Positions 2,084 to 44,545 of a DNA stretch of 64,000 nucleotides are shown piece after piece. Below the pieces are notes generated by a model. The model saw nothing but the letters and a program-made list of their open reading frames with translations. It was not told where the DNA came from and did not search any database. The translations under genes were made by a program, and so were the position numbers. Position 1 is the first letter of the stretch. Each line of letters starts with the position of its first letter. Source of the DNA: a virus (Duplodnaviria; Heunggongvirae; Uroviricota; Caudoviricetes); IMG/VR virus record IMGVR_UViG_3300048573_000051, positions 15,996 to 79,995 of that record. One strand, given 5' to 3'.

Positions 2084-2716
2084 ATGACAGTACTAAATTT
2101 TCCAACATCTCCTACACTTAACCAAATCTACGTTTCATCTGCTGGTCGTAGTTGGAGGTGGGACGGTTTAAGTTGGATTCCTGTAGGTTCTAATATACCG
2201 TGGGATAAAATATCAGATACTCCTACAACCTTAACTGGTTTTGGGATTACAAATGCACAACCTTTGGACGCAGATTTAACCGCGATTGCAAGTTTGACAG
2301 GTACAAACGGACTATTAAGAAAAACAGCAGTAGATACTTGGAGCTTAGATACTAATTCATATGCGACAAGTTCTGGTGCTGTACTTACAGTGCCGACCCT
2401 TACGGGAACCCGTGAGTCTCGTGTGGCGCTGTCTACTGGCGCGATTGACCTGACATCAGCTAACTACTTCACCCGCACGATCTCAGGCGCTTTGACGTTC
2501 TCGGTATTGAACGTGCCAGCGAACGGTACTGCGATCTCGTTCATCTTAGATTTGACGAACGGTGGTAGCGCAGTGATCACTTGGTGGTCAGGTGTGAAGT
2601 GGGCTGGCGGCACTGCGCCAATCCTCACGGCATCTGGTCGCGATGTGCTTGGGTTCTTTACATACGATGGCGGAGTTACTTGGACTGGCCTTGTGCTTGG
2701 AAAGGACGTGAAATGA
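2084..2716 (+). CDS. tail fibre protein
   Basis: N-terminus LNFPTSPTLNQIYVSSAGRSWRWDGLSWIPV matches the conserved phage tail-fibre N-terminal motif; GC-rich gene followed by a fibre-assembly chaperone. Confidence 0.55.
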   Translation: MTVLNFPTSPTLNQIYVSSAGRSWRWDGLSWIPVGSNIPWDKISDTPTTLTGFGITNAQPLDADLTAIASLTGTNGLLRKTAVDTWSLDTNSYATSSGAVLTVPTLTGTRESRVALSTGAIDLTSANYFTRTISGALTFSVLNVPANGTAISFILDLTNGGSAVITWWSGVKWAGGTAPILTASGRDVLGFFTYDGGVTWTGLVLGKDVK

Positions 2717-3354
2717 CAGCGCGTGATATTATCATGGCTGCTGCAGGTGCAAGCACGGCAAAGGTGTCGCCAGTGCGCAAGGGTGTTTATGCAGGTGATC
2801 TTGTAAACGGATCACTCAGCTTTGTTGCAAGCGCAGGTGACATCGTTATTGCTTTTGCGACTCCTGACTCAAAGGAAGGTCTACTTAACTGGGGCGCTGA
2901 TGCTGGCTGGACACGTATTTCAAATAACCCGTCTGAGAGCGTGGCGCTTTACCGAGTGCAGCAAGCAGGAGATCAAAGTACCGTGACTTTCTATTACGGG
3001 TACGGAAATTTCCGTTTGGATTGGGGGAGAGGCGTTGCTGTTGTCTACGGTGGGGCTGCGTATGACACGGCTGCTCAACACGAGTACGTCTACTCCACTC
3101 CGGTCACAGTCACAGGCCCAACGGCAACAGCGGATAACTCTGTGTTGTTAGGTTTCGTGAGCAGGGGTGATACTAGTGGGGATAGCGTTACTTTGGGGTC
3201 AACTGATCTCACGCAGTTAGCCATCTCGACACTACCAAACTGCGCTCAGTATGCAGGGGAAAAACCAGTGAGTGCAGGGGCAACATCCGCCACTTTTACA
3301 GCCACACAGTCAGACTACGTGTGTGCCATTTTGTTGACTCTTAAACCTGCGTAA
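2714..3354 (+). CDS. tail fibre / host specificity protein (start revised to the ATG at 2714)
   Basis: The track ORF 2581..3354 overlaps the upstream gene; the internal ATG at 2714 has an AAGGACG RBS and an ATGA overlap with the preceding stop; Gly/Thr-rich. Confidence 0.4.
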
Positions 3355-3363
3355 GGATTAAAT

Positions 3364-3792
3364 ATGCTCCTGAAACTATCAGACCAATCTCGTGTAAGCG
3401 AACAAGAATTTCGCCGATCAAACCCTGACTCATCGTTTCCAATGGTGTTAACAGACGGCATCATTGCAGAATACGGGTACGCCATTTTGTACGAAACAGA
3501 CAAGCCTGTAGCCCCAACTGGTTATAAGGTTGTAATTGATGGCGTTGAATTTGTTGACTCACAGTGGCGCACTAAATATGTCATTGAGCCACTCAATGAA
3601 TATGAGATTGAGAGACTCGCAATTCAAGTCAAGTCAATCAGGAATTCACTTCTACTCGACTGTGATTGGACTCAACTCCCAGATACCGATGTTGACAAGC
3701 ATGCGTGGGCGACTTACCGCCAAGCGTTGCGTAACCTGACGAAAAACCCAAATTGGCCTTTCATCGTTTGGCCTGAACAGCCGTCAACTTAA
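3364..3792 (+). CDS. tail fibre assembly protein (Tfa-like chaperone)
   Basis: C-terminal region LLLDCDWTQLPDTDVDKHAWATYRQALRNL resembles the conserved Tfa/Caudo_TAP motif; immediately follows the fibre genes. Confidence 0.5.
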   Translation: MLLKLSDQSRVSEQEFRRSNPDSSFPMVLTDGIIAEYGYAILYETDKPVAPTGYKVVIDGVEFVDSQWRTKYVIEPLNEYEIERLAIQVKSIRNSLLLDCDWTQLPDTDVDKHAWATYRQALRNLTKNPNWPFIVWPEQPST

Positions 3793-3846
3793 TTGGGCAA
3801 GTGATTTATAACGCAAACTGTTTGTCGTTACAATTGAAGTTTAATC

Positions 3847-3875
3847 TTGACACATCTCTTTAGAAGTGTTATAAT
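3847..3875 (+). promoter_or_regulatory. perfect consensus sigma70 promoter TTGACA-17-TATAAT
   Basis: TTGACA at 3847-3852, a 17-nt spacer, TATAAT at 3870-3875. Confidence 0.6.
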
Positions 3876-3943
3876 AAATTTGATTGACAAATGATACCTT
3901 AAGTGCGATCAAAAAGATAAAGTACAAGACTAATATAAGAAAA

Positions 3944-3973
3944 GGCTACCTCGTGTAGCCCTTTCTGTTTATT
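3944..3973 (+). terminator. rho-independent terminator
   Basis: GGCTAC-ctcgt-GTAGCC hairpin followed by CTTTCTGTTTATT. Confidence 0.55.
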
Positions 3974-3977
3974 ATAC

Positions 3978-4006
3978 TTGATTTTCTAATAAAATTATGA
4001 TATAAT
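3978..4006 (+). promoter_or_regulatory. sigma70-like promoter for the head gene operon (TTGATT-17-TATAAT, extended -10 TG)
   Basis: TTGATT at 3978-3983, TGATATAAT ending at 4006, 17-nt spacer; the same architecture recurs at 11329 and 20887. Confidence 0.55.
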
Positions 4007-4018
4007 AATGTTTATATT

Positions 4019-4831
4019 GTGCTAAATGGGAAGAATATGGAAACAATTAATAAAGCTAAAAGTTATGCTCCCACAGAAGCAATGCGAAATAATGCACGAA
4101 GAGGTTTAGCACTACGAGAGAAATATAATCGTGGTGGACTAGACGCTTCGCAAGCTAAATCAGAAGGTGTAGGTTCCGGTGTAGCAAGAGCAAGAGATAT
4201 CATTAATGGTAATCTTAGCTTGGCTACAGTCAAACGTATGTACGCTTTCTTTAGCAGACACGAAAAGAATTATAACCCTAAGAAGAAAATGCCTGATGGT
4301 GGACCTACTGCTGGTACTATCGCTTGGTTACTTTGGGGTGGCTCTGCAGGTTTAGCTTTTGCTAGGCGTGTACTGAAACAAGAAGATATTCTTAAAAGTT
4401 ACATCAAAGAGATTACAGACACTGAAGTTAACTCAGAGGATGTTTTACCTAATGTTAAACTTCCAATTACAAAAGCAGTTGACGAAGAATTAAAGCAAGC
4501 TACTTTTATCGTTATGGTTCCTGAAGAAGTTGATGCTCACGGTGATGTAACCAGTGAAGCTGAAGTTCGTAAAGCCTGTCATAACTTTAATAAATACTCT
4601 ATGAAAGCTAATCTATTTCATTTAGTTGAAACAGATACTTTTGAGTTTTGTGAAAGCTACTGCTGTCCTAGCGATTTTGTGCTAGGTGACAAATTTGTAA
4701 AAAAAGGCACTTGGTTAGCAACTATTCAATCCTTAGATGATAATCTTTGGGAATTAATCAAGTCTGGTGAAATCAATGGTTTGAGTATCGGTGCGTTAGC
4801 ATCTGTCGAATCAATCGAAGAGGATGAATAA
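4019..4831 (+). CDS. prohead maturation protease (HK97/S78-like) with N-terminal extension
   Basis: The C-terminal half carries VPEEVDAHGDV and GLSIG motifs like the HK97-family prohead protease; the gene sits directly upstream of scaffold and capsid genes; an alternative start at 4037 is possible. Confidence 0.45.
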   Translation: MLNGKNMETINKAKSYAPTEAMRNNARRGLALREKYNRGGLDASQAKSEGVGSGVARARDIINGNLSLATVKRMYAFFSRHEKNYNPKKKMPDGGPTAGTIAWLLWGGSAGLAFARRVLKQEDILKSYIKEITDTEVNSEDVLPNVKLPITKAVDEELKQATFIVMVPEEVDAHGDVTSEAEVRKACHNFNKYSMKANLFHLVETDTFEFCESYCCPSDFVLGDKFVKKGTWLATIQSLDDNLWELIKSGEINGLSIGALASVESIEEDE

Positions 4832-7434: not shown

Positions 7435-8235
7435 ATGTACAACAATTATTGTGTATACGTATACAAAGACTCACAAAATATCATAAGATATGTAGGTCAA
7501 GGTAGACCTGACCGTGTAAAAAGTAAATCAGGTAGATCACCTGAATTTTTAGAGTTTATTAATAGTCAAGATTTTACTATTGAAATATTGTATGAAAACT
7601 TAACGAAAGACCAAGCTCTTTCTATAGAATCTAAGTTAATACAAAACTCAGATAATTTACTGAATAAAAACTCAACAGCTTATGTTAACGATCTGACATA
7701 TGATTTTTGTAGAGAGTATTTTTATTTTGACATAAGTTCTCCCACTTTATTAAGATGGAATAAAACAATATATTCAGGTGAACATAGAAATATTCAATCA
7801 ACGATTAAAGATTCACCTGCTGGTAACTTAATGTCAAAAGGTTATAACAGGGTAAATTTAAATCGTAAAACATTTTATGTTCATAGGATATTATGGGTTC
7901 TTTATTACGGTAAGGATATACCAAATGATAAAGTAATAAATCATATCGATGGTGATAGACTTAACAATAGTATTGAAAATTTAGAACTTTGTACACAGCA
8001 ACAAAATTGTGCTCGTACAATAAGAAAACCCACTGGTATTTCTGGTATAGTTGGTGTATCAATTAAAACATCAATTTTAGGTATTAAAAGTTCCTATGCT
8101 ACTATAAGATTTCATGGTAAACTCTATGAAAAAGGTTTCAGCCAAAAGAAATATGGTGAAGAAATTGCACTATTAAATGCGATAAAATGGCGTGAAGATA
8201 AAATTAAAGAATTGAACAATATAGGTGAAAAATGA
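7435..8235 (+). CDS. free-standing homing endonuclease (GIY-YIG-like N-terminus plus HNH-like motif)
   Basis: N-terminal CVYVYKDSQNIIRYVGQG matches the GIY-YIG pattern; NHIDGDRLNNSIENLELC is an HNH-like core; AT-rich; inserted between capsid and connector genes. Confidence 0.55.
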   Translation: MYNNYCVYVYKDSQNIIRYVGQGRPDRVKSKSGRSPEFLEFINSQDFTIEILYENLTKDQALSIESKLIQNSDNLLNKNSTAYVNDLTYDFCREYFYFDISSPTLLRWNKTIYSGEHRNIQSTIKDSPAGNLMSKGYNRVNLNRKTFYVHRILWVLYYGKDIPNDKVINHIDGDRLNNSIENLELCTQQQNCARTIRKPTGISGIVGVSIKTSILGIKSSYATIRFHGKLYEKGFSQKKYGEEIALLNAIKWREDKIKELNNIGEK

Positions 8236-11229: not shown

Positions 11230-11259
11230 TTAGTTAACCCTTAGTGGATATTGTGATAA

Positions 11260-11290
11260 ACCCCTTGGTCAAAAGCCGAGGGGTTTTTCT
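11260..11290 (+). terminator. rho-independent terminator after the major tail protein
   Basis: CCCCTTGG-tcaaaag-CCGAGGGG hairpin then TTTTTC. Confidence 0.6.
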
Positions 11291-20880: not shown

Positions 20881-20886
20881 TCACCC

Positions 20887-20915
20887 TTGATTTAACCAAC
20901 TAGTTATGATATAAT
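20887..20915 (+). promoter_or_regulatory. sigma70-like promoter TTGATT-17-TGATATAAT upstream of the lysis cassette
   Basis: TTGATT at 20887-20892, TATAAT at 20910-20915 with upstream TG. Confidence 0.5.
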
Positions 20916-20928
20916 AGTCTTAACTTTC

Positions 20929-20977
20929 GCCTGAAAGCTTTCTGTTAATTCAGACGGTTTTCAGGCTTTATTTTTAT
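20929..20977 (+). terminator. hairpin with U-tract immediately downstream of a promoter (leader terminator/attenuator)
   Basis: GCCTGAAA ... TTTCAGGC 8-bp stem followed by TTTATTTTTATT. Confidence 0.5.
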
Positions 20978-21028
20978 TACAGATCATAACTAACGTTATA
21001 CAGCAAACTAGCAGTCAAAGGTATTACT

Positions 21029-21256
21029 ATGTCAGAACAAATTGAACACCGTGTTATTAAACTAGAGTTAAAAGTAGAAGATCACGCAGAAGAACTAAAG
21101 AAACTGCAAGATATCTCTACAGATTTACGCAATTCTTTATCTGGTATTGAAAAGACGTTAAATCAGATTAAATACTTGGCAATCGGTGCAGTGTTAGTTG
21201 TACTAACTCAATCAATGGGTATTACTAACGTACTCAAATTAATAGTAGGATTATAA
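21029..21256 (+). CDS. XhlA-like holin / lysis-associated membrane protein
   Basis: 75 aa with an N-terminal coiled coil and a single C-terminal transmembrane segment (YLAIGAVLVVLTQSMGI), the XhlA-family architecture; first gene of the lysis block. Confidence 0.4.
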   Translation: MSEQIEHRVIKLELKVEDHAEELKKLQDISTDLRNSLSGIEKTLNQIKYLAIGAVLVVLTQSMGITNVLKLIVGL

Positions 21257-21757: not shown

Positions 21758-22204
21758 ATGAAATTATCTCAAAATTTTACATTGGATGAATTCACACAAT
21801 CAGCGTCTGCTAAAAGACTTGGTATCTCTAACGAACCAACACCAGAAGTCATTGCTAATCTACAACTACTTGTAACAAACGTCCTGCAACCGCTTAGAAC
21901 AGCCCTAGGGCGCTCAATTAAGGTTACTAGCGGCTACCGTAGCCTTGCAGTGAATAAAGCCGTTGGTGGTGTTAAAACAAGCCAGCACAGCGAAGGTATG
22001 GCAGTGGATATTGTTGTAGACGGTATGACACCTTACGATGTTGTGCAGTTCTTACTTGATATGAACATTGAGTTTGATCAAGTTATTAACGAGTTTAACG
22101 AATGGACACATCTTAGTTTTAACCAAGGTAGTAACCGCAAGCAAGTATTAACCGCTAAAAAGACAGATGGCAAGACTAGATTTATTTCTGGTCTTTTCAA
22201 ATAA
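21758..22204 (+). CDS. endolysin, zinc peptidase M15 family (L-alanyl-D-glutamate / D-Ala-D-Ala peptidase type)
   Basis: SGYRSLAVNKAVGGVKTSQHSEGMAVDI matches the M15 (VanY-like) SxHxxGxAxD zinc motif; last gene of the + strand module, followed by a strong terminator. Confidence 0.7.
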   Translation: MKLSQNFTLDEFTQSASAKRLGISNEPTPEVIANLQLLVTNVLQPLRTALGRSIKVTSGYRSLAVNKAVGGVKTSQHSEGMAVDIVVDGMTPYDVVQFLLDMNIEFDQVINEFNEWTHLSFNQGSNRKQVLTAKKTDGKTRFISGLFK

Positions 22205-29856: not shown

Positions 29857-30374
29857 ACATCCTTCTCTTTGTTGATAATGTCTCGCAGTGTATCATAGCT
29901 GAACTGCTTTGTCAACACTGCAGATTGAAATAATTTCTTGCGTTCAACAGCATTCTTACCTGCAGTTTTACCTAAAGCAACTAACACTGAATCTTTTTGT
30001 GCTTCTTTTAGCTTATTAAATGCAGTGTTAATCTTCTTTATCCACATGTTATGTCTGTAGCGTGTGTCAGGTTCTTTCTCAAGATAGTCTGCACACTCTC
30101 TGAGCAAAGTGGGTAGATCATTAGGATACCACCAAGCGATCAAACGTGTAAAAGCATTTTCACTTTTACCTAAGAAAGCATTAACCTGACGATGTAATAC
30201 ACCACGAACTAACTGAGTTTCATCGTGAACGTGATCTAAAACATGTTGCTTAACCGGAATATCTAAGCCAGTTACTGCACATGTGTTGAATTGCTCTTTT
30301 GTAAGCAGTTCTCGTACTTTCTTAACGTCTGCTGTGTTATAAAGATCAGTTGTGCTATTTGATTTAGTTGACAT
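29853..30374 (-). CDS. recombination endonuclease VII-like Holliday junction resolvase
   Basis: CAVTGLDIPVKQHVLDHVHDETQLVRGVLHRQVNAFLGK matches the T4 endo VII-type CxxC...HxDH...N motif; start moved to the ATG at 30374, which has a GAAAGAGGTG RBS. Confidence 0.5.
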   Translation of the reverse strand: MSTKSNSTTDLYNTADVKKVRELLTKEQFNTCAVTGLDIPVKQHVLDHVHDETQLVRGVLHRQVNAFLGKSENAFTRLIAWWYPNDLPTLLRECADYLEKEPDTRYRHNMWIKKINTAFNKLKEAQKDSVLVALGKTAGKNAVERKKLFQSAVLTKQFSYDTLRDIINKEKDV

Positions 30375-31341
30375 ACACACCTCTTTCCGCTGCAAACTGA
30401 ATAAAACTACTATCATCATCTGCACTGCGCTTCATGTAAGCTAACGTCCAGTACATCTGAAGCATGTCAAACCAAGTAACTTCTGTGTGATCTTCACCAT
30501 GACAGTCTGTGTAATCAAAAGGTTCTGGATATAAGTGTTTAAACTCGCTGATAACAACTTCAAGAATTTCTTTTTCAGTGTTTGCTTTCTCCAGTGCTTT
30601 CATAGCTTTAGCTGGACCGTAAGCTACATTAGACAACTGATAACCTTTGTAAGTATCTGCACTATCTCCTGAAAGTACTTGCAATGCTAGAAACTTTAGA
30701 CCTTCACCTTTGTAACTTGTCTTTTCTTTCCACAGTGCCCCTACATCGGGAATAACCTTGCCTTGCCACTCTTCTTGTCCAAAGTTTAGCACCTCTACGC
30801 CTTGAGACTGTTGTGCGTCTTTATCTGCAGAAGCAATGATAGGATAATTACCTTTAGCTAACTCTTCGTAGGCTCTAATTGTAATCATGTCGTCAGTTTC
30901 AATACCTTTGATCAACTGCGCTTTGTGCTTAACTTGTAAGTATCTTCGTACATCTACAAGTTGCAAAGGTTTGATTAGGTCATCACGATTGTTCTTATAC
31001 GGTGTAGGAAGGGCTAGAGCGTGTCTAAACGTCTTACCAGTACCAAGGTATAGCTCTACGCGATCAGCCCACGTATGGTCCGTTAAACGCTGAATAACGC
31101 TCTTTACGTTACGTAGAGCAAATCGAATAGAAGCTGCTGTTTGTACATCTTCAATTTCATAGTCTTCAGGTTTAAACTCCATGTTCTTTTCTTTGAGTAA
31201 CGTCTTTAGCTCTGTACGAGTTTTAAAGATTTTTTCTCTGCCTGATTTTAGGTGCTTTGCTACAATACTGCGCTTTTCATTCGCTGCAGCGTACTGATAT
31301 GCAATCAGGTCAGCATCAATGATAAGTACTCTTTCTGTCAT
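30364..31341 (-). CDS. 5-prime to 3-prime exonuclease / flap endonuclease (RNase H-like, T4 rnh / T7 gp6 type)
   Basis: N-terminal VLIIDADLIAYQ acidic motif and IETDDMI motif typical of the FEN/5-prime-nuclease family; replication module context. Confidence 0.55.
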   Translation of the reverse strand: MTERVLIIDADLIAYQYAAANEKRSIVAKHLKSGREKIFKTRTELKTLLKEKNMEFKPEDYEIEDVQTAASIRFALRNVKSVIQRLTDHTWADRVELYLGTGKTFRHALALPTPYKNNRDDLIKPLQLVDVRRYLQVKHKAQLIKGIETDDMITIRAYEELAKGNYPIIASADKDAQQSQGVEVLNFGQEEWQGKVIPDVGALWKEKTSYKGEGLKFLALQVLSGDSADTYKGYQLSNVAYGPAKAMKALEKANTEKEILEVVISEFKHLYPEPFDYTDCHGEDHTEVTWFDMLQMYWTLAYMKRSADDDSSFIQFAAERGVYVN

Positions 31342-31395
31342 CTACAGATTCTCCTTAAAGAAAAACCCCAAGGGATTAACCTCGGGGTCTTATTA

Positions 31396-31614
31396 TCAGC
31401 TACGAGCAGCTTGGATGGCTTCTAGTGTTAGCTCTGATTTTTCTACTAGCTTTTGGACACCATCTTTTACGATAGCTTTAGCTACATTGCACAATACTGA
31501 AGGGTCAAGACCTGCCGCTTTAGCTTCATCTTTAATCTCTTTGATTTCTTCGCCAAGAGACTGTTCTTGTGTGTATAGTCGTACTAGTTTAGCGATTGCT
31601 TCTTTACTTTGCAT
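31396..31614 (-). CDS. GapR-like (DUF2312-like) small DNA-binding protein
   Basis: 72 aa; LGEEIKEIKDEAKAAGLDPSVLCNVAKAIVKD resembles the GapR/DUF2312 pattern EExKxxxxDxKxxxxEAKxxGFD. Confidence 0.35.
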   Translation of the reverse strand: MQSKEAIAKLVRLYTQEQSLGEEIKEIKDEAKAAGLDPSVLCNVAKAIVKDGVQKLVEKSELTLEAIQAARS

Positions 31615-31615
31615 A

Positions 31616-31822
31616 TTAGGCCTTTTTAAGATTTGGTTTGTACATCCATGTGAAATTCATTACAACTACAGCTAACCAGCTATAGAATGTATATGGAATA
31701 CTCAGGATTGGAAACAACGTATTGAGCGACCAGATTGTAGCCAACGGCACAAAAATGATAGCTAAAATAGCCAATGTAAGAACAGATACAATCGTTAGAA
31801 TGTCTTTAGTTTGCTTTGTCAT
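31616..31822 (-). CDS. small membrane protein
   Basis: 68 aa with two predicted TM helices. Confidence 0.35.
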   Translation of the reverse strand: MTKQTKDILTIVSVLTLAILAIIFVPLATIWSLNTLFPILSIPYTFYSWLAVVVMNFTWMYKPNLKKA

Positions 31823-31878
31823 AATTCTCCTTGTGTTATTGAATATTAAAGGTAGGGACCGAAGCCCCTACTATATGA

Positions 31879-32520
31879 TTAGAACGGAATATCGTCATCC
31901 GTGTCATCAACCGCTGGTTTAGCTTTAGCTTTTGCAGCAGGTTTAGCGGCAGGTTTCTCTGCTTTTGGTGCAGGAGTATCATCACCGAATTCATCACCGG
32001 GATTGTAATCACTTGCTGAACCTTCTTCTGGCACATATTCGATCATTTCGGTAACAAGAATGTTCTTTAGGTAAAGAGAACTTGTACCGTTGTTGCGAGT
32101 AAACACATCAATACTGATTGAACCAATAGAACCATTACCGGGTAGCTTAGTGTTGGTTACATCAACTAGTGTATTCTTAACCTTCTCAAAGACTTTCGGC
32201 TTATATAGATCAGGTACAGGCTTACCAGTTTTACCTAGCTCTGTAGATTTACGGAAAGTGACAACCCAAATATTCTTACCTGCGCCTTCTGGTGGTGCGG
32301 TTTTATATACGGCTTCAAACTCTGCAGTTTTGACTTTCTTGACTGATACTTTTGCGTCAATGCTTTTAGCATAATCTTCAAATTCATCGATAGTGTCTTC
32401 ATCTACAATAGCTACAGATGCTTTCCATTCGTCAGCTTTAGGTGCATCGCCAGCTTTGACATAAGCTTTAACAGGCTTGTTGAGTTGGACGTAGAGTAGA
32501 GTTCCAGTTAATTTATTCAT
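31879..32520 (-). CDS. ssb: single-stranded DNA-binding protein with host-SSB-like acidic C-terminal tail
   Basis: The C-terminus ...DDTDDDIPF is identical to the bacterial SSB DDDIPF protein-interaction tip; preceded by a Pro/Ala/Lys-rich linker; replication module. Confidence 0.6.
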   Translation of the reverse strand: MNKLTGTLLYVQLNKPVKAYVKAGDAPKADEWKASVAIVDEDTIDEFEDYAKSIDAKVSVKKVKTAEFEAVYKTAPPEGAGKNIWVVTFRKSTELGKTGKPVPDLYKPKVFEKVKNTLVDVTNTKLPGNGSIGSISIDVFTRNNGTSSLYLKNILVTEMIEYVPEEGSASDYNPGDEFGDDTPAPKAEKPAAKPAAKAKAKPAVDDTDDDIPF

Positions 32521-32649
32521 ATATTTCCTTTCGAGGACTAATTATGTTACAGACTAAAATGTGCAGGACTAAATGCACGACTAATGCAGCTTTTGCCACA
32601 AACCAGATTATAACAAAGCTTGTTAGTCAAGTCAAGCTTTATTTTTTTG

Positions 32650-32988
32650 TTATTCGTAGACAATGACAGTCTTTTGTTTAGGTGTTACAAACTTGTAACC
32701 TTGGTAATCTGTACCGTAGTGTGATGCGTAATAACCGTAGACTTTAACAAAGCACTCTTCACCGTCTTTGCTAAACTTCCATACGCACCAGTAGTGAGAA
32801 CCTTGGTCTTCACCGCCGTAACTATCTACCGATTCATAAGCGATTGATTGATTGTCAAGTGCAGTAGCAATTTCACCGTAACAGTTATCTTCATTCATCA
32901 TATCTTCTAGTGAACTATCAGTTACACTACTAAACATACTTTTTAAAGTTTCTTTAAGACTCATATTAAACTCCTTATTTCTTTTCAA
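32650..32988 (-). CDS. hypothetical protein, member of a tandem paralogue pair
   Basis: Shares YGGEDQGSHYWCVWKF...YYASHYG motifs with the adjacent 32975..33331 gene. Confidence 0.4.
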   Translation of the reverse strand: MKRNKEFNMSLKETLKSMFSSVTDSSLEDMMNEDNCYGEIATALDNQSIAYESVDSYGGEDQGSHYWCVWKFSKDGEECFVKVYGYYASHYGTDYQGYKFVTPKQKTVIVYE

Positions 32989-33331
32989 ACACAGTAATAG
33001 TTTTCTCTACAGCTTGCACTTCGTAGAATTCTTCGTAGGTTGAATCATCATATGATGCATAGTAGCCATCAAACTTAATGAATACAACTTGCATTCCATC
33101 TGAGAATGAATACACACTCCAGTAGTCCGATCCTTGGTCTTCACCGCCGTAGCGATCTACAAGTTCAAAGTTGATGTTAGCTTCAGTAAGCTGTTTTCTA
33201 AAGTCTTTTACACTTGGGTAATCCCAATTATCTTCTTTAGATGAAAACACACCATTATGCAATTCATATTTAACTTCATTAGCAGTTTCCGCAAGTAGTG
33301 TACTAATTCTGTCAATTAAACGCTCAGTCAT
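32975..33331 (-). CDS. hypothetical protein, member of a tandem paralogue pair
   Basis: RYGGEDQGSDYWSVYSF...GYYASY motif shared with 32650..32988. Confidence 0.4.
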   Translation of the reverse strand: MTERLIDRISTLLAETANEVKYELHNGVFSSKEDNWDYPSVKDFRKQLTEANINFELVDRYGGEDQGSDYWSVYSFSDGMQVVFIKFDGYYASYDDSTYEEFYEVQAVEKTITVFEKK

Positions 33332-33332
33332 A

Positions 33333-34145
33333 TTACTCCTTTAGTAAAATTTGTTTAACATTCTCAAACTTAGCAGCATCAAACATATCCAAGATATCTG
33401 TATAGTTATCAATTGCATAGTTTCTAAACCAGCCTGAACACAGTGTAGTACAAATCTTGTTGACTGATTTGTAAAACGCTAGTTTAGCTGGTGTATTCCA
33501 ATCGCTAGGCACTAAGAACCTTTCAGTTGAAATAACATAAGCTTCTTCTGCAATGCATCTAAGTTTGTCTGCATGACTTAGATTGTACCACAAATTTTTA
33601 TCGCACCACGCTAACTTTGAATCTTTTTGTAATTTTTTATACAAAGGTTGATCGTAATAGGCAAACAACTCGTGCAAGTAATCGTGATTGTACTTCTTAG
33701 TTACAGCATCATCAAAGAAATCTTCTACTGTTTGCATCAAGTTTGGATTACCTTGTGGGTATGCTGACATTGTAAGTTTGGTGCGTTTGTTTAGTACATC
33801 TTCATCTTTGTCAGTAAAGAAAGGACGAAATACTTTTAAGTACAGATTGTAGTGCGTCATATGTTTTTCAAACTTCCGATCACGCCACAAGTGACTGCGC
33901 TTTACAATAGCAAGGCCAACAGGATTAACTACGTAAACTCTTTGACCTGCAATCTCAATGTAGTGCGTACTTGCATAGTTTAGTAGATCGTAATTACCGA
34001 CTTGATCAAATGTATGCCATTCAATGCGCTTATTGTCATCTTGAATTTTATGTTCGCTGATAACATCCCAATCTGAATCTGGCTTTGCTTTAAACGTAGC
34101 ACTCCAGTATTGCAATGCTTGTGAACCGATCAGAAGATTTTTCAT
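33333..34145 (-). CDS. hypothetical protein (start revised to the ATG at 34145)
   Basis: The track ORF extends to 34277 and overlaps a tRNA; the internal ATG at 34145 has an AAGGAG RBS at 34151-34156. Confidence 0.45.
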   Translation of the reverse strand: MKNLLIGSQALQYWSATFKAKPDSDWDVISEHKIQDDNKRIEWHTFDQVGNYDLLNYASTHYIEIAGQRVYVVNPVGLAIVKRSHLWRDRKFEKHMTHYNLYLKVFRPFFTDKDEDVLNKRTKLTMSAYPQGNPNLMQTVEDFFDDAVTKKYNHDYLHELFAYYDQPLYKKLQKDSKLAWCDKNLWYNLSHADKLRCIAEEAYVISTERFLVPSDWNTPAKLAFYKSVNKICTTLCSGWFRNYAIDNYTDILDMFDAAKFENVKQILLKE

Positions 34146-34160
34146 GTTAACTCCTTTATT

Positions 34161-34238
34161 TGGTGGACAGTGGCAGAGTCGAACTGCCGCCATGCTTGAG
34201 TTACAAACACCTGTTAGCCGTTTACACAGTAACTGCCC
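34161..34238 (-). tRNA. tRNA-like gene with a non-canonical anticodon arm (anticodon ambiguous)
   Basis: 78 nt with a CCA end; acceptor stem GGGCAGT/ACTGTCC (one G-U); D arm CTGT/ACAG; T arm GGCAG-TTCGACT-CTGCC; anticodon region GTGTTTGTAACTCAAGC folds only with a 5-nt loop or with G32/U37, both atypical. Confidence 0.5.
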
Positions 34239-34700
34239 ATGTTTGGTGTGAGCGACAGGTAACGCTCCTGCTTCCAACGACTTATGAGGTCGCTGCCTGA
34301 CTTCTCGGCTTCACTCACGGTTATAGTAAAATATACATAAATACACTTTACTATAAACTCTGGTCCCTAAACCAGTATTATAGTGTCTTTCGCTCCCGTA
34401 GAAGATTTCTCTCCTATTATTCGTTACACTATTGGACGACAATCCGCATGCTGGAAATCCTGCAGTACAGCGCAACTTGTACTTGCATTTTTAATGACGG
34501 GACTTACACCCGCCTCGCTGGAAGTTTGCCGCTAACTCTAGGGATTTGAGCAACAGGCATCAGCGGGACTATTTATGAATTTAAACTTACGAATCCTTTG
34601 ATTTCCGACTATCGCAGCTTAGATATATCTAGAATCATCTACGAGTAAGTACAAAGGCATCGAGGCTGGCAACCTTTCGGTTCATTCGTAAGTTTAAAAC

Positions 34701-34802
34701 TGGTGTAACTGGATGGATTCGAACCATCGGCTTGGTTTACCCTCTGGCATTTGGTCCTTCACCGTGAAGAGGTTCCTGCTCTACCAACTGAGCTACAGTT
34801 AC
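34701..34802 (-). tRNA. aberrant 102-nt tRNA-like gene with a 49-nt central region lacking a canonical anticodon arm
   Basis: Perfect acceptor stem GTAACTG/CAGTTAC with ACCA end; consensus D arm TAGCTCAGTTGGTAGAGC; T arm GATGG-TTCGAAT-CCATC. No 5-bp/7-nt anticodon stem-loop can be drawn between them; there is an internal hairpin CTTCA-cgg-TGAAG flanked by CCTCT/AGAGG. Confidence 0.45.
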
Positions 34803-34808
34803 ATTGTT

Positions 34809-34885
34809 TGGTGCGAGTGGAGGGATTCGAACCCACGACCAATGGTGTAGAAGACCAGTGCTCTATCCAACTGAGCTACACTCGC
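34809..34885 (-). tRNA. tRNA-Arg (anticodon UCU)
   Basis: 77 nt: GCGAGTG acceptor stem, GCTCAGTTGGATAGAGC D arm, anticodon loop CTTCTAC (U33, UCU, A37) resembling E. coli argU, T arm GTGGG-TTCGAAT-CCCTC, encoded CCA end. Confidence 0.8.
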
Positions 34886-35189
34886 TTAATCTCAATTATA
34901 CATCAGTTTTTAACTTTGTGTCAACAACTCGTAAAATATTTACTCTAATATTCAGCCTAGTCAATTCGTTAAGATCAGATTGTGGCATTGACATACAAGC
35001 TCGTAGTATACCGTTTTTATCATACTGCTCCAACGTTTGATACTCTTTATTGTACTTATACGTGTAACTCATAGTATAACCTTTATGATATAATCGTGTT
35101 TAATACCTGAAGATAAAAATGCAAGTTTAGCTTCATGTTTGTTTTGTGCAGTAATTATAAAGTGCCCAAGCTTAGGTTGCTTGTATTCT

Positions 35190-35411
35190 TTATAAACCAC
35201 ATAGTACTCTTTCATGATTCCATCCTCCAACAGCGTGTGTTTTAAACGTAGCTTTTGATATGCTGATTACATGCTCAGGTAACTGCTTATGTGTACCAGC
35301 AAACCATTCATCTTCAAAACAGCATTGCATCTTAGCAAGGTCATGTTCGTATGCTACTTCCCACACCCAAAACGGTAAAGCACCCCAACTCATGTGTTCT
35401 CCTTCAACCAT
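35190..35411 (-). CDS. hypothetical protein
   Basis: 73-aa ORF downstream of the DNA polymerase operon. Confidence 0.3.
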   Translation of the reverse strand: MVEGEHMSWGALPFWVWEVAYEHDLAKMQCCFEDEWFAGTHKQLPEHVISISKATFKTHAVGGWNHERVLCGL

Positions 35412-35656
35412 TTTTCACGTTCACTTTCGTGTTTTAAATCAATATATGCTGAGTCCAGTAGTAATTGATATGCTAACTTTTCTAGATTTGAAGGAGGATC
35501 ACCTACGTGTGCCCGTAATGTAATGTTTTCTAGATCGTCAATGCATTTTGAAACAAAGTTGCTATCAAAAATTCCACAACCTGCTATACGTAATTGAACA
35601 ACAGGGGCAGTCCCTCTCGGTTGTAAATTATTTCTCAATCGTTCAATGATATCCAT
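35390..35656 (-). CDS. hypothetical protein
   Basis: 88-aa ORF; stop is 14 nt from the polymerase gene end. Confidence 0.3.
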   Translation of the reverse strand: MDIIERLRNNLQPRGTAPVVQLRIAGCGIFDSNFVSKCIDDLENITLRAHVGDPPSNLEKLAYQLLLDSAYIDLKHESEREKWLKENT

Positions 35657-35669
35657 AATCTTCCTTTCA

Positions 35670-37967
35670 TTAATGGCACTGACCCCAATTCATACCGGGA
35701 ATGTACTCAAAGCCTAAGTCTACACGAAGTTTCAACTCTTGGCAAGCTTTTTTGATACCTTCTTCGATGCATTCTACAGGTACAGTCTTCATACCAACAT
35801 ACGCACCCTTCGAACCGTGACCAATAGCACTACAACCGGGATTAGCTTGAACGAATTCTTTTGCTTCTTCTTCAGTTGCAAACGATTTAATCTGCAGCAA
35901 ACTAGGATGACAAGCCATCTGTTGTTCATCATGCATGTGAATCAACCACCAGACTTTAACATCTTTCTTGGTATCTTTGAAAGGATCGCCAAGGATTCCA
36001 CGCTCTTCCATAGCCTGAGCTAAACGAACAGCAGACCACTTAGCAGCAATAGCACCACCAGACTGGAATAGAACGTTAATAAGGCTGTGTTTACTACGAG
36101 TTGATAGCAACCTACCATCAAGGCCCGGAATGCTCTTCTTGCCGCTTGCTTCCCATCGTTGCTCTACACGTTCTTTTAATTCTTTAAGTGCAGGTACAGC
36201 GTCCCAATATTCGTTAAACAAGCGTTGACCTTCAGCTTCACTAATGCCAAGCATCTTAGATAGCTTTTTAGGTTGTGCACCATAAATCGCAGCATAGGAA
36301 AAGGACTTTGCAGAGCTACGGTCAATTCCAAGTTTACGTGCGTTAATACTGTGAATGTCATTAGGCTTTTCTGCAACCAACGCTGCAGCTAAGTTTACAC
36401 CGTCAGTATAAGGCAGCACATAGTGACCCATTACTCGTGCCTCCAGTGAAGCAAAGTCGTAACCCAACTGCCATAGTCCCTTTCCGCTACCAAACAGTGT
36501 ACGCATTTGTTCACCGTACAGCGAAGTTACGCGAGGTACGTTACACACAATCTTATGGCGATAGCGTCCAGTGTTAGCACCTAAAGTATCTGCAGGAGTA
36601 GGCACACGACCATCTTCACGTACAGCACTTAGAAAACCTGTCATTGGTTCACCATCTTCATCCAAAGCACCACCAGCAATAGAATTCTTTCGGTGACGAT
36701 ATGTGTAGTAATGCACAACATCTTTTACGAACTCTGCTTTTTGACCTAGTGAGATAAGGTTAGGACAGATTTCTTTTTCTACACCTACAGTAAGCTTAGG
36801 AGTAGTAGGCAGGTAAATAGGTTTTGTACCGTTGATTTTCTTAATCAAGAATGCACGTAAGTTTTCCATACGAACATCCAGCAATTCTAAACGCAAGTCA
36901 CGAAACACTGAAGTTTCAGTTTGCTTGACATAGCGGTCAATAGCTTCAATGATGCCATCGTAATCTCTTACGCTCTTATCGGTCTTCTTAACGATATCGC
37001 GCTCTTTAACTTCAGATGGAACCCAACCCAAGGAAATCAGATAGCCTTTGACAACATCGATATCTTCAATGTCTGCCTCCTCTTCATTCTTTAGAGGCTC
37101 GTCTGTAGTAATAGGAAATACCTTACCTTCAAAGGTAATTGTCTTTTGGTCTTCTGAGATAACTGCAGAAGTTTTCTCGCAGAACTTCAGAAGGTTAGCT
37201 GACACTTCGCCGTTCTTTTTAAAACGAATCTTTGGCAACTGATAGAAACTTGCATTGGCTTGTGTCATGCGCTTTTTAGGCAGCAGTGGGTCTACAGTCT
37301 TCGCAATGTCTTGCATCAATGTAGTTAGTTCTGCAATGTTCTTATGTGCAAGCTCTACGTTAAAATCAAAACCGAATAGTTCTTGACGTAAGGTAAGATC
37401 AGTCAGCTTAACTTCCATGCTGTAAGGTGTATTCCAATCGTGCTTACCTTGCTCTTTGATAAGCTCGCTTAGAACTGAAGCATTAACGCTTGTATCTTGA
37501 ATACAGTAGTCTAGCATTTCTTGTGAGAAACGGTCCCACTCTGCAAAGTGAATCTTGTTGTTGCCCAAACGCTTACCCCAAGCATCAAGGCTGTGACCAC
37601 CAAGACGATCAGCATTCAGTAGTTTAGACCACAAAAGTGTATCTGTAATTTGAACAGGTTTACCAAACAGTGTACTAGGTTGACCGGGATAGCCTACAGT
37701 GTAGTCCAAGGCATCATACAGCATCAGTACAGGTAAGTCGAAAGCTACAATGTTATGTCCAATCAGTTCGGTGCAATCACTCAAAATACGACTGAGATTC
37801 TTCTTTGTGATCTCTTCTTTGACTAGTGATACTACAGCTTTGGTGTCTAGGTTACGCACGACCACGCACCAGACTTTGTAGTCAGGCTTTAACTGAAAAG
37901 GCATAGAGGTGTAATCCAAACCGTTTTGCAGCAAGTTCGTAGATTCGATGTCGATGATGTAACGCAT
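35670..37967 (-). CDS. DNA polymerase, family A (Pol I-like) with N-terminal 3-prime to 5-prime exonuclease
   Basis: 765 aa; N-terminal MRYIIDIESTNL exo motif; palm motif A LGYDFASLEARVMGHY and motif C HMHDEQQM typical of family A polymerases. Confidence 0.85.
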   Translation of the reverse strand: MRYIIDIESTNLLQNGLDYTSMPFQLKPDYKVWCVVVRNLDTKAVVSLVKEEITKKNLSRILSDCTELIGHNIVAFDLPVLMLYDALDYTVGYPGQPSTLFGKPVQITDTLLWSKLLNADRLGGHSLDAWGKRLGNNKIHFAEWDRFSQEMLDYCIQDTSVNASVLSELIKEQGKHDWNTPYSMEVKLTDLTLRQELFGFDFNVELAHKNIAELTTLMQDIAKTVDPLLPKKRMTQANASFYQLPKIRFKKNGEVSANLLKFCEKTSAVISEDQKTITFEGKVFPITTDEPLKNEEEADIEDIDVVKGYLISLGWVPSEVKERDIVKKTDKSVRDYDGIIEAIDRYVKQTETSVFRDLRLELLDVRMENLRAFLIKKINGTKPIYLPTTPKLTVGVEKEICPNLISLGQKAEFVKDVVHYYTYRHRKNSIAGGALDEDGEPMTGFLSAVREDGRVPTPADTLGANTGRYRHKIVCNVPRVTSLYGEQMRTLFGSGKGLWQLGYDFASLEARVMGHYVLPYTDGVNLAAALVAEKPNDIHSINARKLGIDRSSAKSFSYAAIYGAQPKKLSKMLGISEAEGQRLFNEYWDAVPALKELKERVEQRWEASGKKSIPGLDGRLLSTRSKHSLINVLFQSGGAIAAKWSAVRLAQAMEERGILGDPFKDTKKDVKVWWLIHMHDEQQMACHPSLLQIKSFATEEEAKEFVQANPGCSAIGHGSKGAYVGMKTVPVECIEEGIKKACQELKLRVDLGFEYIPGMNWGQCH

Positions 37968-38026
37968 GTCTTCCTTCCAAATAAATAAGCCCCAAGTCTA
38001 TCACAACTTGAGGCCCATGTCAACTA

Positions 38027-39745: not shown

Positions 39746-39753
39746 TTTACTCC

Positions 39754-40785
39754 TTATTCGTTTTTAAGTAACCATTTGTTGTTAATTGCCTTAAAGCTGC
39801 AATCATGCACAGTGTTACTCTTAAACACCAAACCTTCACGTTCACTGCCATTTAACAAAGACTTACCTTCAGCATGTTCTAATAGAATCTGAATAGTACA
39901 GTCTTTAATATTGGCAGTTTCTCTGATGATAGGCACATGCTTTAACCCAAGCTTTTCACACGCCGCTTTAAGCTGTACAGGTAAGATATATTGTCCTGTG
40001 TGGGTATTGTACATGTCGTAAACGTAGAAGTCAAGCTGTACTTTGTACTGATTTCCTTGGATACCTTCACCGATCATTTCACCTTGAATTGCCATACCCT
40101 TCATAAAATTACGGCGCATGATATCTTCAATATTAAACTTACGTGCTACTTTCCAGAATGAATTTGCTTCGTCTTCTTTCAAGTCTAAGTTACGTGAGCA
40201 TACATGGAATACACCTTCATCATCAAGATAGAATGTGGAAGAGGAGCCATCAAGCTTTTCCGTGATTGACCAAGTATCTTTTTGGTACTCTTCAAACTGT
40301 CGTGTCAAGTTTTGAATACGCTCTTGATCAGTCTTTGGTACTAGCGCAGGGAAATTACCTCGTGCCATACCAGCAAGTTGAGCGTTCATGGGGCGTTCCC
40401 ATTTGATAATACCAAGAATATCACTTACATCTGATCCTTCGAATTCATCAGGAGTTAGCCAATCTTCTTTTTGTACTTTCGTTAGTACATTTAATGGTAG
40501 CAACAAACCTTGTGAAATTTGACCACGTAGTTTTACTGTACGTAGGCGCTCACCCTTTACACCTTCAAATTCACGAGGCTCTTTACCTTTAGATAGGAAT
40601 GGTGCAATATCGTGACCTACCCACGAGTCAATTTCGATATACACGGCAAGTGAATCAACTGCAAATTCACCCTTCTTTACTACAACTTTCCAACCATCGA
40701 CTACAGCGACTTCAATAGCATCTGCACCTTCGATGGGTTCAATTGCTGCAATCTTACGAATAGTTGCTAATTTACGTTCTGTCAT
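39754..40785 (-). CDS. RNA ligase-like nucleotidyltransferase (Rnl5-like: N-terminal OB-type domain plus central KxDG motif)
   Basis: Motif I ITEKLDGSS in mid-protein; N-terminal MTERKLATIRKIAAIEPIEGADAIEVA resembles the N-terminal domain of the DraRnl-type RNA ligase family. Confidence 0.45.
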   Translation of the reverse strand: MTERKLATIRKIAAIEPIEGADAIEVAVVDGWKVVVKKGEFAVDSLAVYIEIDSWVGHDIAPFLSKGKEPREFEGVKGERLRTVKLRGQISQGLLLPLNVLTKVQKEDWLTPDEFEGSDVSDILGIIKWERPMNAQLAGMARGNFPALVPKTDQERIQNLTRQFEEYQKDTWSITEKLDGSSSTFYLDDEGVFHVCSRNLDLKEDEANSFWKVARKFNIEDIMRRNFMKGMAIQGEMIGEGIQGNQYKVQLDFYVYDMYNTHTGQYILPVQLKAACEKLGLKHVPIIRETANIKDCTIQILLEHAEGKSLLNGSEREGLVFKSNTVHDCSFKAINNKWLLKNE

Positions 40786-40796
40786 TTGTTTCTCCT

Positions 40797-42283: not shown

Positions 42284-42392
42284 AACTAATCTCTCCCAGC
42301 TTTAAAAATGCGATACCGTTTGTTACCAATCTTCAAGTATAGACCAGCATGGTAGAAAATCTTAGGTGATTGCCAAATAAATTTAGGAAAAT

Positions 42393-42976: not shown

Positions 42977-43111
42977 TGTGCCACCACCTGTAAAATCATG
43001 TTAATACCTTGGATGATCATCTGTTGCTCCATTGGGTTCAACTGATGCCATGTACGTTTGTCGCCAAACTTTGTAGCTACTGTAGACCAAAACTGCTCTA
43101 CATCTGATTGA

Positions 43112-44531: not shown

Positions 44532-44545
44532 AAATACTCCTTTAA

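What the first reader, a model, noticed from the sequence alone, without database searches (positions are those of the whole stretch)
3847..4006. Perfect consensus promoter followed 65 nt later by a terminator, then a second promoter: a candidate small RNA or antitermination leader upstream of the head operon
TTGACA-17-TATAAT (3847..3875) is a textbook sigma70 promoter. A clean rho-independent terminator lies at 3944..3973, and the actual head-operon promoter (TTGATT-17-TGATATAAT, 3978..4006) follows immediately. The first promoter would make a terminated RNA of roughly 70-90 nt with no ORF. An analogous promoter-then-terminator pair precedes the lysis cassette (20887..20977). This resembles lambda PR-prime/tR-prime (6S RNA), where a Q-type antiterminator converts a short terminated transcript into late-gene readthrough, or it encodes a regulatory sRNA.
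Basis: partly seen in the sequence, partly recalled or inferred. Interest (0 to 1): 0.55.

Follow-up and report, generated by a model that had tools for sequence, protein, structure and literature searches.

The report
Gutted promoter–terminator gene cassette remnant
The perfect promoter and the terminator 65 nt downstream are real. They are the surviving ends of a small self-contained gene cassette whose 50-codon gene has been deleted in this phage, so this is an ordinary evolutionary relic and not a lambda-style switch for the head genes.

Summary
P1 (3847-3875) is TTGACA-17-TGtTATAAT; only two 12/12 matches occur in the window, against 0.07 expected. An intrinsic terminator lies at 3938-3973, and P2 at 3978-4006.

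The window is a DC31-like virulent Limnohabitans siphophage. The region sits at the junction between a variable tail-fibre module and the conserved head module.
- P2 is conserved in about 35 distinct relatives. It belongs to a late promoter class, CTTGATTT-N14-TATGnTATAAT.
- P1 and the terminator are absent from nearly all relatives.
- Where they do occur (L022, L105-L115), they flank a 50-aa ORF that has an SD and is under strong purifying selection (dN/dS 0.03-0.10). The terminator there shows compensatory changes.
- The window aligns to this cassette at the promoter and its left flank. It then lacks about 120 nt (5'UTR, SD, start codon and about 35 codons), and re-aligns over the last 13 codons (frameshifted), the terminator and P2.

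So P1-T is an ORF-less derivative of a moron-like cassette. It probably still makes a non-coding RNA of about 90 nt, and its terminator insulates P2. No Q-like antiterminator was found.

Separately, the promoter-then-terminator layout before the lysis genes (20887-20977) is conserved, and a second such leader exists upstream of the window. These deserve their own follow-up.

The parts
3364..3792 (+). Tail-fibre assembly chaperone gene, the last gene of a GC-richer, lineage-specific tail-fibre module (2084-3792)
   Evidence: Pfam PF16778 at 1e-14 and PHROG tail fibre assembly families. GC is 44-47% against about 37% elsewhere. The nearest homologue outside this clone is 46% identical. There is no DNA match in relatives.
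3835..3846 (+). Remnant of the 3' end and stop codon of the DUF7936 gene, which precedes the cassette in relatives (TGAAGTTTAATC against L109 TGAAGTTTGATA)
   Evidence: Local alignment of window 3835-3852 to L109 gives 16/18 identity; 2% of shuffles score as high. The family flanks are listed, and the multiple alignment is A7.
3847..3875 (+). P1: TTGACA-17-TGtTATAAT, a host sigma70-type consensus promoter with an extended -10. It is positionally equivalent to the promoter of the 50-aa ORF cassette; the predicted start is near 3882.
   Evidence: 12/12; 2 in the window against 0.07 expected. The hexamers and the TG are identical in L022, L105/106, L109-112, L114 and L115, while the spacers differ in every lineage.
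3876..3894 (+). Junction sequence, where about 120 nt present in the intact cassettes (5'UTR, SD, ATG and about 35 codons) are missing
   Evidence: A single gap of about 122 columns in alignment A7. The pairwise alignment resumes at 3895.
3895..3933 (+). Pseudogene remnant: the last 13 or so codons and the TAA stop of the 50-aa ORF. It has two 1-nt deletions relative to L109 and no start codon.
   Evidence: 29 matches, 10 mismatches and 2 gaps against L109.
3938..3973 (+). Intrinsic terminator of the cassette: hairpin 3938-3966 and T-rich tract to 3973. It also ends upstream read-through and insulates P2.
   Evidence: It is homologous to the terminators of L022 and L105-L115. Compensatory changes occur in 4 of 10 pairs, with 90% of cells paired against 60% or less in the slid controls. 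The window version has lost one G, creating an A.C mismatch, and is the weakest of the family (-13.1 against -14.4 to -17.8).
3977..4006 (+). P2: the late-class promoter of the head operon (CTTGATTT-N14-TATGATATAAT)
   Evidence: Conserved in DC31 and in about 35 distinct IMG/VR contexts, with homology to relatives beginning about 3 to 17 nt upstream of its -35 hexamer. The same motif occurs at 11328 and 20886 only, all in the late block.
4037..4831 (+). First gene of the head operon: an XkdF-type prohead protease
   Evidence: Pfam PF14550 at 4e-24. It is followed by a phiTE_211-like protein and the major capsid protein PF03864.
20886..20977 (+).
   Evidence: The layout is conserved in 10 of 12 distinct relatives, with three unrelated hairpin sequences. 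An endolysin lies at 21758-22204.

Best explanation
The P1-to-terminator unit is an ORF-less derivative of a small autonomous, moron-like transcription cassette.

In a subset of DC31-like Limnohabitans siphophages, this cassette sits between the tail-fibre module and the head operon. The intact cassette consists of a perfect sigma70 promoter, a conserved 5'UTR with SD, a 50-aa ORF and an intrinsic terminator.

In the window's lineage three things happened:
- The tail-fibre module to the left was replaced, up to about 12 nt before the -35.
- About 120 nt carrying the UTR, the start codon and roughly 35 codons were lost.
- The remaining 13 codons acquired frameshifts.

Shown: the homology, the deletion, the conservation pattern and the covariation in the terminator.

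Inferred:
- Host RNA polymerase still fires at P1 from the start of infection.
- It makes a non-coding RNA of about 86-92 nt that ends at the cassette terminator.
- The terminator also stops read-through from the upstream late genes and from P1, so that the head operon is driven by its own conserved late promoter P2.
- The short RNA is most likely a by-product without a dedicated function.
For: **Distribution among relatives**
- P2 is conserved in DC31 and in about 35 distinct IMG/VR contexts. Homology to relatives begins about 3 to 17 nt upstream of its -35 hexamer.
- Only L022 among those contexts has a strong promoter and a terminator upstream of P2.

**The intact cassette**
- L022 has TTGACA-17-TATAAT, then an SD, a 50-aa ORF, the homologous terminator and P2.
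- The ORF has 9 homologue clusters at 76-94% identity.
- All contexts fetched place it in the same slot, between DUF7936 and the protease, with the same promoter hexamers, conserved UTR and terminator.
- dN/dS is 0.03-0.10 at dS of about 1, so it is a real gene and the invariant hexamers are under selection.
- The terminator hairpin has compensatory changes in 4 of 10 pairs.

**The window against the cassette**
- 3835-3852 matches the DUF7936 end plus the -35.
- One gap of about 120 nt follows.
- 3895-3933 matches the last 13 codons, with two frameshifting deletions.
- 3962-4018 is 100% identical to L109.

**Negative searches**
- No Q, N, sigma or phage RNAP family was found.
- No Rfam family matched.

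**P1's promoter class**
- P1 is of the same class as the other canonical promoters of the phage, such as the one in front of the tRNAs. It differs from the late class.
Against: - No transcript data exist, so the activity of P1 and the efficiency of the terminator are inferred.
- The left-flank match is short (16/18 nt, shuffle p about 0.02). The spacer is unrelated to any family member, so orthology of P1 with the family promoter is likely but not proven. A replacement by a foreign promoter is possible.
- The promoter (14 of 14 key positions) and the terminator remain intact while the ORF remnant has decayed. This could mean that selection is keeping the RNA, or keeping the promoter for some other purpose.
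- Every copy recovered from metagenomes is 100% identical, so selection within the lineage cannot be measured.
Confidence: 0.72

Rival explanations
1. Exapted small RNA. After the ORF was lost, the promoter-terminator pair was retained because the RNA of about 90 nt acts in trans on host or phage transcripts or proteins. That RNA has a 5' hairpin, an A-rich single-stranded middle and a terminator hairpin.
For: - The promoter is perfect and the terminator functional-looking, despite decay of the coding remnant.
- The predicted fold has a z-score of -2.5 against shuffles.
- The general shape is sRNA-like: a strong promoter, an unstructured A/U-rich stretch and an intrinsic terminator.
Against: - It is found in one clonal lineage only. 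Its 5' part has no match in IMG/VR, in the metagenome collection or among GenBank phages.
- No Rfam family matches.
- The best duplex with the translation initiation regions of the phage's own genes is within the null range (-25.4 against -21.3 +/- 2.6).
- Much of the fold score comes from the inherited terminator.
- The RNA body is a deletion junction plus a frameshifted ORF tail.
Confidence: 0.15
2. Lambda PR'/tR'-like antitermination leader. A phage factor loads on RNA polymerase at P1 and converts the short terminated transcript into read-through transcription of the head operon.
For: - The layout is promoter, then short non-coding RNA, then terminator, upstream of late genes.
- The initially transcribed region contains TTGACA directly followed by AATGAT (3884-3895). 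This recalls, from memory only, the -35-like and -10-like elements at the lambda PR' pause site.
- Late-class promoters elsewhere in this phage group are followed by conserved leader hairpins with T-runs.
Against: - A conserved promoter, P2, lies between the terminator and the head genes, and it is the only element shared by relatives.
- In relatives, P1 and the terminator flank a protein-coding gene and are missing from most genomes.
- The TTGACA/AATGAT motif lies in the deletion junction and is absent from the intact cassettes.
- P1 is not of the late promoter class.
- No Q-family or other antiterminator domain was found by Pfam or PHROGs in the window. None appears in the precomputed Pfam calls for the 9.8 kb upstream or in the published DC31 paper.
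Confidence: 0.04
3. Chimeric junction. P1 is not orthologous to the family promoter. It arrived with the foreign tail-fibre/chaperone module, as the promoter of some other donor gene, and was fused by recombination to the 3' end of the resident cassette. The outcome is the same: an accidental promoter-terminator pair.
For: - The spacer and the first 19 transcribed nucleotides have no similarity to any family member.
- The module to the left is compositionally foreign, and its chaperone is only 46% identical to its nearest homologue.
Against: - The 12 nt upstream of the -35 match the DUF7936 gene end of L109, including a stop codon in the same place.
- Spacers differ among all bona fide family members too.
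- No donor sequence was found.
Confidence: 0.09

Closest known systems
Morons of lambdoid phages (e.g. HK97 gene 15), as summarised in PMC3594210
   Same: The unit is an autonomous insertion between conserved late genes, with its own sigma70 promoter and factor-independent terminator. It is sporadically distributed among otherwise collinear relatives, and the intact relatives carry one small ORF.
   Different: - The host phage is virulent (DC31 forms clear plaques, PMC12195039), so expression from a repressed prophage does not apply.
- The window copy has lost its cargo ORF, and only the transcription signals remain.
- The function of the 50-aa protein is unknown.
Lambda PR'-tR' 6S RNA with Q antitermination (from established knowledge)
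   Same: A strong constitutive-looking promoter is followed by a short non-coding transcript that ends at an intrinsic terminator upstream of late genes.
   Different: - A separate conserved promoter follows the terminator.
- There is no Q-like gene.
- The element is not conserved among relatives.
- It derives from a protein-coding cassette.

The lysis-cassette leader at 20886-20977 resembles lambda more closely than the flagged site does.
Small RNAs born from decayed or truncated phage genes (e.g. IpeX and DicF from cryptic prophages; lambda oop RNA as a short promoter-to-terminator phage transcript) (from established knowledge, not tested here)
   Same: The RNA would be a short phage transcript defined by a promoter and a terminator, with a body made of remnant coding sequence.
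   Different: There is no evidence here of a target, of conservation or of expression. Those known RNAs have demonstrated antisense or trans targets.

Membership tests
Lambda-type Q antitermination unit (PR'-tR') | A Q-family antiterminator protein is encoded by the phage | tested here: not met
   No PF03589, PF06530 or PF06323 hit, and no other antiterminator, sigma or RNAP domain. The scans were Pfam on about 115 of 120 window ORFs, PHROGs on 36 ORFs and precomputed Pfam on the 10 genes of the 9.8 kb upstream. Nothing of the kind appears in the DC31 paper. About 6 kb of the genome, and many small ORFs of unknown function, remain unassessed.
Lambda-type Q antitermination unit (PR'-tR') | Late genes downstream depend on read-through, with no promoter between the terminator and the genes | tested here: not met
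   P2 (3977-4006) lies between the terminator and the protease gene. It is the element conserved in about 35 relatives.
Lambda-type Q antitermination unit (PR'-tR') | The promoter-leader-terminator unit is conserved among related phages that share the late operon | tested here: not met
   It is absent from 34 of 35 distinct IMG/VR contexts. Where present, it encloses a 50-aa gene.
Lambda-type Q antitermination unit (PR'-tR') | A sigma-dependent promoter-proximal pause element (-10-like) and a Q-binding element at the promoter | tested here: inconclusive
   AATGAT lies next to TTGACA at 3884-3895, but it sits in the deletion junction and is absent from the intact cassettes. Binding and pausing cannot be tested with these tools.
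Moron-like autonomous cassette | Own sigma70-type promoter | tested here: met
   P1 scores 12/12 with TG. The hexamers are invariant across family members at dS of about 1.
Moron-like autonomous cassette | Own factor-independent terminator | tested here: met
   A hairpin with a T-tract at 3938-3973. Compensatory changes occur across the family.
Moron-like autonomous cassette | Carries a cargo gene | tested here: not met
   The window has only a frameshifted 13-codon remnant without a start codon. Relatives carry an intact 50-aa ORF under purifying selection. The window copy is therefore filed as a remnant of such a cassette, not as an intact member.
Moron-like autonomous cassette | Present or absent between conserved neighbours in related genomes | tested here: met
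   The slot upstream of P2 is empty or differently filled in most relatives. The cassette is present in L022 and L105-L115.
Trans-acting bacterial/phage sRNA gene | Conservation of the RNA body, or covarying structure, beyond one lineage | tested here: not met
   There are no matches to the 5' part. All copies are clonal. Covariation exists only in the inherited terminator.
Trans-acting bacterial/phage sRNA gene | An identifiable target by complementarity | tested here: inconclusive
   The phage's own translation initiation regions give a best duplex of -25.4 against a null of -21.3 +/- 2.6. Host targets were not testable, because no host genome was in hand.
Trans-acting bacterial/phage sRNA gene | The RNA is detected in vivo | not testable with these tools
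   No transcriptome data are available here.

The most novel reading that the evidence does not exclude
DC31-like phages may control part of their late programme by regulated read-through of promoter-proximal terminators, using an antiterminator unrelated to the known Q and N families.

Two of the four late-class promoters in this phage are followed, within about 11-14 nt of the -10, by a conserved hairpin and T-rich run. One is before the lysis cassette (20886-20977) and one is before the 465-aa gene about 5 kb upstream of the window. No further promoter follows either hairpin, and the hairpins are maintained by replacement or by compensatory changes.

Under this reading, the flagged terminator at 3938-3973 would be one more terminator that late transcription must handle. 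The P1 RNA could even be an exapted early RNA. The evidence does not exclude this, but it does not favour it over simple attenuation or 5'-hairpin mRNA stabilisation.
Probability: 0.15. Interest if true: 0.6.

Novelty: new member of a known kind. Interest (0 to 1): 0.2.

Why it matters
For the flagged site the value is mostly corrective. A textbook promoter and terminator pair in a phage genome need not be a regulatory RNA gene or an antitermination leader. Here, comparative data show it to be the shell of a small accessory gene cassette.

It also gives a first sketch of the transcription signals of DC31-like freshwater phages:
- canonical TTGACA/TATAAT promoters for accessory and early units and for the tRNAs;
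- a distinct late class, CTTGATTT-N14-TATGnTATAAT;
- terminators at module borders.

It identifies a conserved, strongly expressed 50-aa accessory protein of unknown function. Finally, it points to conserved promoter-proximal leader hairpins before the lysis genes as the better place to look for antitermination or attenuation.

Tried and rejected
- **Rfam.** Gathering thresholds on the whole window, and a permissive E-value scan of 3780-4040, gave only tRNAs and sub-threshold noise.
- **tRNA or tmRNA at the site.** None.
- **Other copies of P1 in the window.** None within 3 mismatches.
- **Exact-pattern scans for the P1/5' RNA part.** There were 0 hits in IMG/VR. The 6 hits in the metagenome collection share no flanking similarity and are chance matches.
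- **Scan for the terminator/P2 junction.** Only the L022 contig in IMG/VR, and nothing in the metagenome collection.
- **Chaperone relatives in IMG/VR.** None. In the large protein collection the nearest is 46% identical, so the idea that the cassette travels with the chaperone could not be tested.
- **Identical-protein look-ups.** These returned only 100% identical copies of the same phage, which say nothing about conservation.
- **sRNA-target search against the translation initiation regions of 120 phage genes.** Not significant (an earlier attempt timed out).
- **Lambda-like pause element (TTGACA + AATGAT at 3884-3895).** Considered and rejected, because it lies in the deletion junction and is absent from the intact cassettes.
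- **A hidden small protein in the RNA.** Rejected.
- **Q-like antiterminator.** Not found.

Full report
**Observation.**
- P1 is TTGACA (3847-3852), a 17-nt spacer and TATAAT (3870-3875), with TG at 3867-3868.
- A hairpin lies at 3938-3966 (core GGCTAC/GTAGCC, 3944-3960), followed by a T-rich tract that runs to 3973.
- P2 is TTGATT (3978-3983), a 17-nt spacer and TGATATAAT (3998-4006).

The consensus scan ranks P1 first, at 12/12. My own scan finds only two 12/12 sites on both strands of the window. The other, at 34924-34895 on the minus strand, lies directly upstream of two tRNA-Arg genes. First-order Markov simulations give a mean of 0.07 such sites, and none of 300 reached two.

The hairpin folds at -12 to -13 kcal/mol. 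That is weaker than the other good terminators of the window, which range from -15.8 to -18.5. A transcript starting near 3882 would be about 86-92 nt and has no credible ORF.

**Context.** Upstream lies a tail-fibre gene pair and a tail-fibre assembly chaperone (3364-3792, PF16778). Downstream lie an XkdF-type prohead protease (4037-4831), a phiTE_211-like protein and the major capsid protein. The tail-fibre module is GC-richer, at 44-47% against about 37%.

The nearest GenBank phage is Limnohabitans phage DC31, at 86% identity. Homology starts only at about 3969-3977, just upstream of P2. DC31 is a virulent siphovirus of 76 kb and 37.6% GC, and no transcription signals have been described for it (PMC12195039).

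**Comparative test.** Sixty-three IMG/VR loci encode the protease. In about 35 distinct upstream contexts, P2 is conserved as CTTGATTT-N14-TATG[GA]TATAAT-TATGTTTA. The gene upstream of it is different almost every time, and homology to the window begins about 3 to 17 nt upstream of the -35 hexamer.

The same motif occurs at only two other places in the window, 11328 and 20886. Both are in the structural and lysis block, so it defines a late promoter class distinct from P1.

Of those contexts, only L022 has a strong promoter and a terminator upstream of P2. The head operon of this phage group is therefore driven by P2. P1 and the terminator are accessory.

**What the accessory unit is.** In L022 the same slot contains TTGACA-17-TGcTATAAT, an SD, a 50-aa ORF, a terminator homologous to the window's, and then P2. 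The ORF has nine homologue clusters at 76-94% identity. In all contexts fetched (L105-L115), the cassette lies between a DUF7936 gene and the protease. It has invariant promoter hexamers and TG, a conserved 5'UTR (AGGTTTTTAACCAACGAAAGGAAAT..ATG) and a terminator.
- The ORF is under strong purifying selection, with dN/dS of 0.03-0.10 at dS of about 1.
- The terminator hairpin is maintained by compensatory changes. Four of 10 pairs change on both sides, and 90% of cells are paired against 60% or less in the slid controls.

This is the anatomy of a moron: an independent transcription unit with its own promoter and terminator, inserted between conserved genes (PMC3594210). The difference is that the host phage here is virulent.

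**The window copy is a gutted version of this cassette.** Pairwise and multiple alignments show the following:
- 3835-3852 (TGAAGTTTAATCTTGACA) matches L109's DUF7936 stop codon plus the -35 (TGAAGTTTGATATTGACA). Identity is 16/18, and 2% of shuffles score as high.
- The -10 and the TG are identical. The spacer is unrelated, but spacers differ between all family members.
- A single gap of about 120 nt removes the 5'UTR, the SD, the ATG and roughly 35 codons.
- 3895-3933 matches the last 13 codons and the stop codon, but carries two 1-nt deletions.
- The terminator has lost one G, which creates an A.C mismatch. It is the weakest of the family (-13.1 against -14.4 to -17.8).
- 3962-4018 is 100% identical to L109.

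To the left of about 3835, the resident fibre and DUF7936 genes have been replaced by a foreign fibre-chaperone module.

**Mechanism.** Shown: the homology, the deletion, the conservation pattern and the terminator covariation.

Inferred:
- P1 is still recognised by host sigma70 polymerase and produces a non-coding RNA of about 90 nt that stops at the cassette terminator.
- The terminator also ends read-through from the upstream late genes. The previous good terminator is about 4.5 kb upstream, after the 760-aa gene.
- The terminator shields P2 from P1.
- P2 then drives the head genes.

**Rivals.** The lambda PR'/tR' model fails three tested defining features. There is a promoter after the terminator, the unit is not conserved among relatives, and no Q-like protein was found. 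The TTGACA/AATGAT motif at 3884-3895 recalled lambda's pause site, but it lies in the deletion junction and is absent from the intact cassettes.

An exapted sRNA cannot be excluded, because the promoter and terminator remain perfect while the ORF tail has decayed. Nothing supports it, however:
- no Rfam family matches;
- the 5' part has no homologue anywhere searched;
- no outstanding target duplex was found;
- only clonal copies are available.

A chimeric origin of P1, arriving with the foreign fibre module, is possible and would lead to the same functional conclusion.

**Side result.** The 'analogous' pair at 20886-20977 is not analogous. It is a late-class promoter followed, 14 nt after the -10, by a hairpin and a T-run, with no promoter before the holin-like gene.

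This layout is conserved in 10 of 12 distinct relatives, with three unrelated hairpin sequences. Two lineages lack both the promoter and the hairpin.

A second such leader lies about 5 kb upstream of the window, before a 465-aa gene. It is conserved in 9 relatives, with one compensatory change. These could be attenuators, targets of an unknown antiterminator, or 5' stabilising hairpins.

**Verdict.** The features are real, and the explanation is ordinary: a promoter-terminator shell left by the loss of a small accessory gene at a module junction. Interest is low for the flagged site itself, and novelty is limited to a new, degenerate member of a known kind.

Noticed in passing
window 20886-21029: A late-class promoter (CTTGATTT..TATGATATAAT) is followed 14 nt after the -10 by a strong hairpin (20930-20965, -18 kcal/mol) and TTTATTTTTATT. 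No further promoter occurs before the holin-like gene at 21029. The layout is conserved in 10 of 12 distinct relatives, with three unrelated hairpin sequences; 2 lineages lack both the promoter and the hairpin. It may be an attenuator or an antitermination target for lysis timing.
   Followed up: partly
L122 4774-4862 (about 5 kb upstream of the window start; locus position = window position + 9842): A fourth late-class promoter (ACTTGAATT-N14-TATGATATAAT) is followed 11 nt later by the hairpin ACCCTGAG-TTAAT-CTCAGGGT and TATTGTTGTTTT, before a 465-aa gene. It is conserved in 9 IMG/VR relatives with a compensatory T:A to C:G change.
   Followed up: partly
L001, L009-L011, L017, L024, L031, L033, L035, L036, L040, L045, L051, L055: 13-37 nt upstream of the P2 -35 hexamer: In 14 of 35 lineages, an inverted copy of the 10-nt box containing the -35 lies upstream. 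It co-varies with the box: CACTTGATTT pairs with AAATCAAGTG, and CTCTTGATTT pairs with AAATCAAGAG. The spacing is variable. It could be a weak terminator-like hairpin whose 3' arm is the -35 box, or paired half-sites of a late regulator. The window and L022 have the canonical terminator at this position instead.
   Followed up: partly
window 3977, 11328, 20886 (+ strand): A distinct late promoter class, CTTGAT[TA]-N13-16-TGnTATAAT, occurs exactly three times in the window. All three are in the structural and lysis block. The sites at 3977 and 11328 are each preceded by a terminator (3938-3973 and 11258-11286).
   Followed up: partly
window 34701-34924 (- strand): The only other 12/12 consensus promoter (34924-34895) sits directly in front of two tRNA-Arg genes. 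One of them (34701-34802, anticodon ACG) is about 100 nt long according to both ARAGORN and Rfam, which suggests an insertion or intron.
   Followed up: no
window 2084-3792: The tail-fibre and chaperone module is GC-richer (44-47% against about 37%) and has no DNA match in any relative. The chaperone's nearest homologue is 46% identical. This looks like recent horizontal replacement of the host-range module, ending about 12 nt before P1.
   Followed up: partly
L022 2746-2898; L105-L115: A conserved 50-aa acidic protein (MEKxTVS..LNYLAEQKFKDVA..) is expressed from a perfect sigma70 promoter. It has dN/dS of 0.03-0.10 and no Pfam or PHROG family. It is an accessory gene of unknown function in DC31-like phages.
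   Followed up: partly
L122 1-530 (upstream of the DUF5681/terminase genes, outside the window): A non-coding, GC-richer stretch of about 530 nt begins with a tRNA-like T-arm sequence (TTCGAATC). No Rfam family reaches the gathering threshold. It could be a packaging or terminal region, or an unknown structured RNA.
   Followed up: no
window 7435-8235, 53720-54301, and one in 30364-45876 (- strand): There are several HNH_3 or AP2-HNH homing-endonuclease-like genes. One of them is inserted between the major capsid gene and the head-tail genes.
   Followed up: no
window 55238-55795: A second cell-wall hydrolase (PF07486 Hydrolase_2, with a PHROG endolysin match) is encoded in the early block, far from the lysis cassette.
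   Followed up: no
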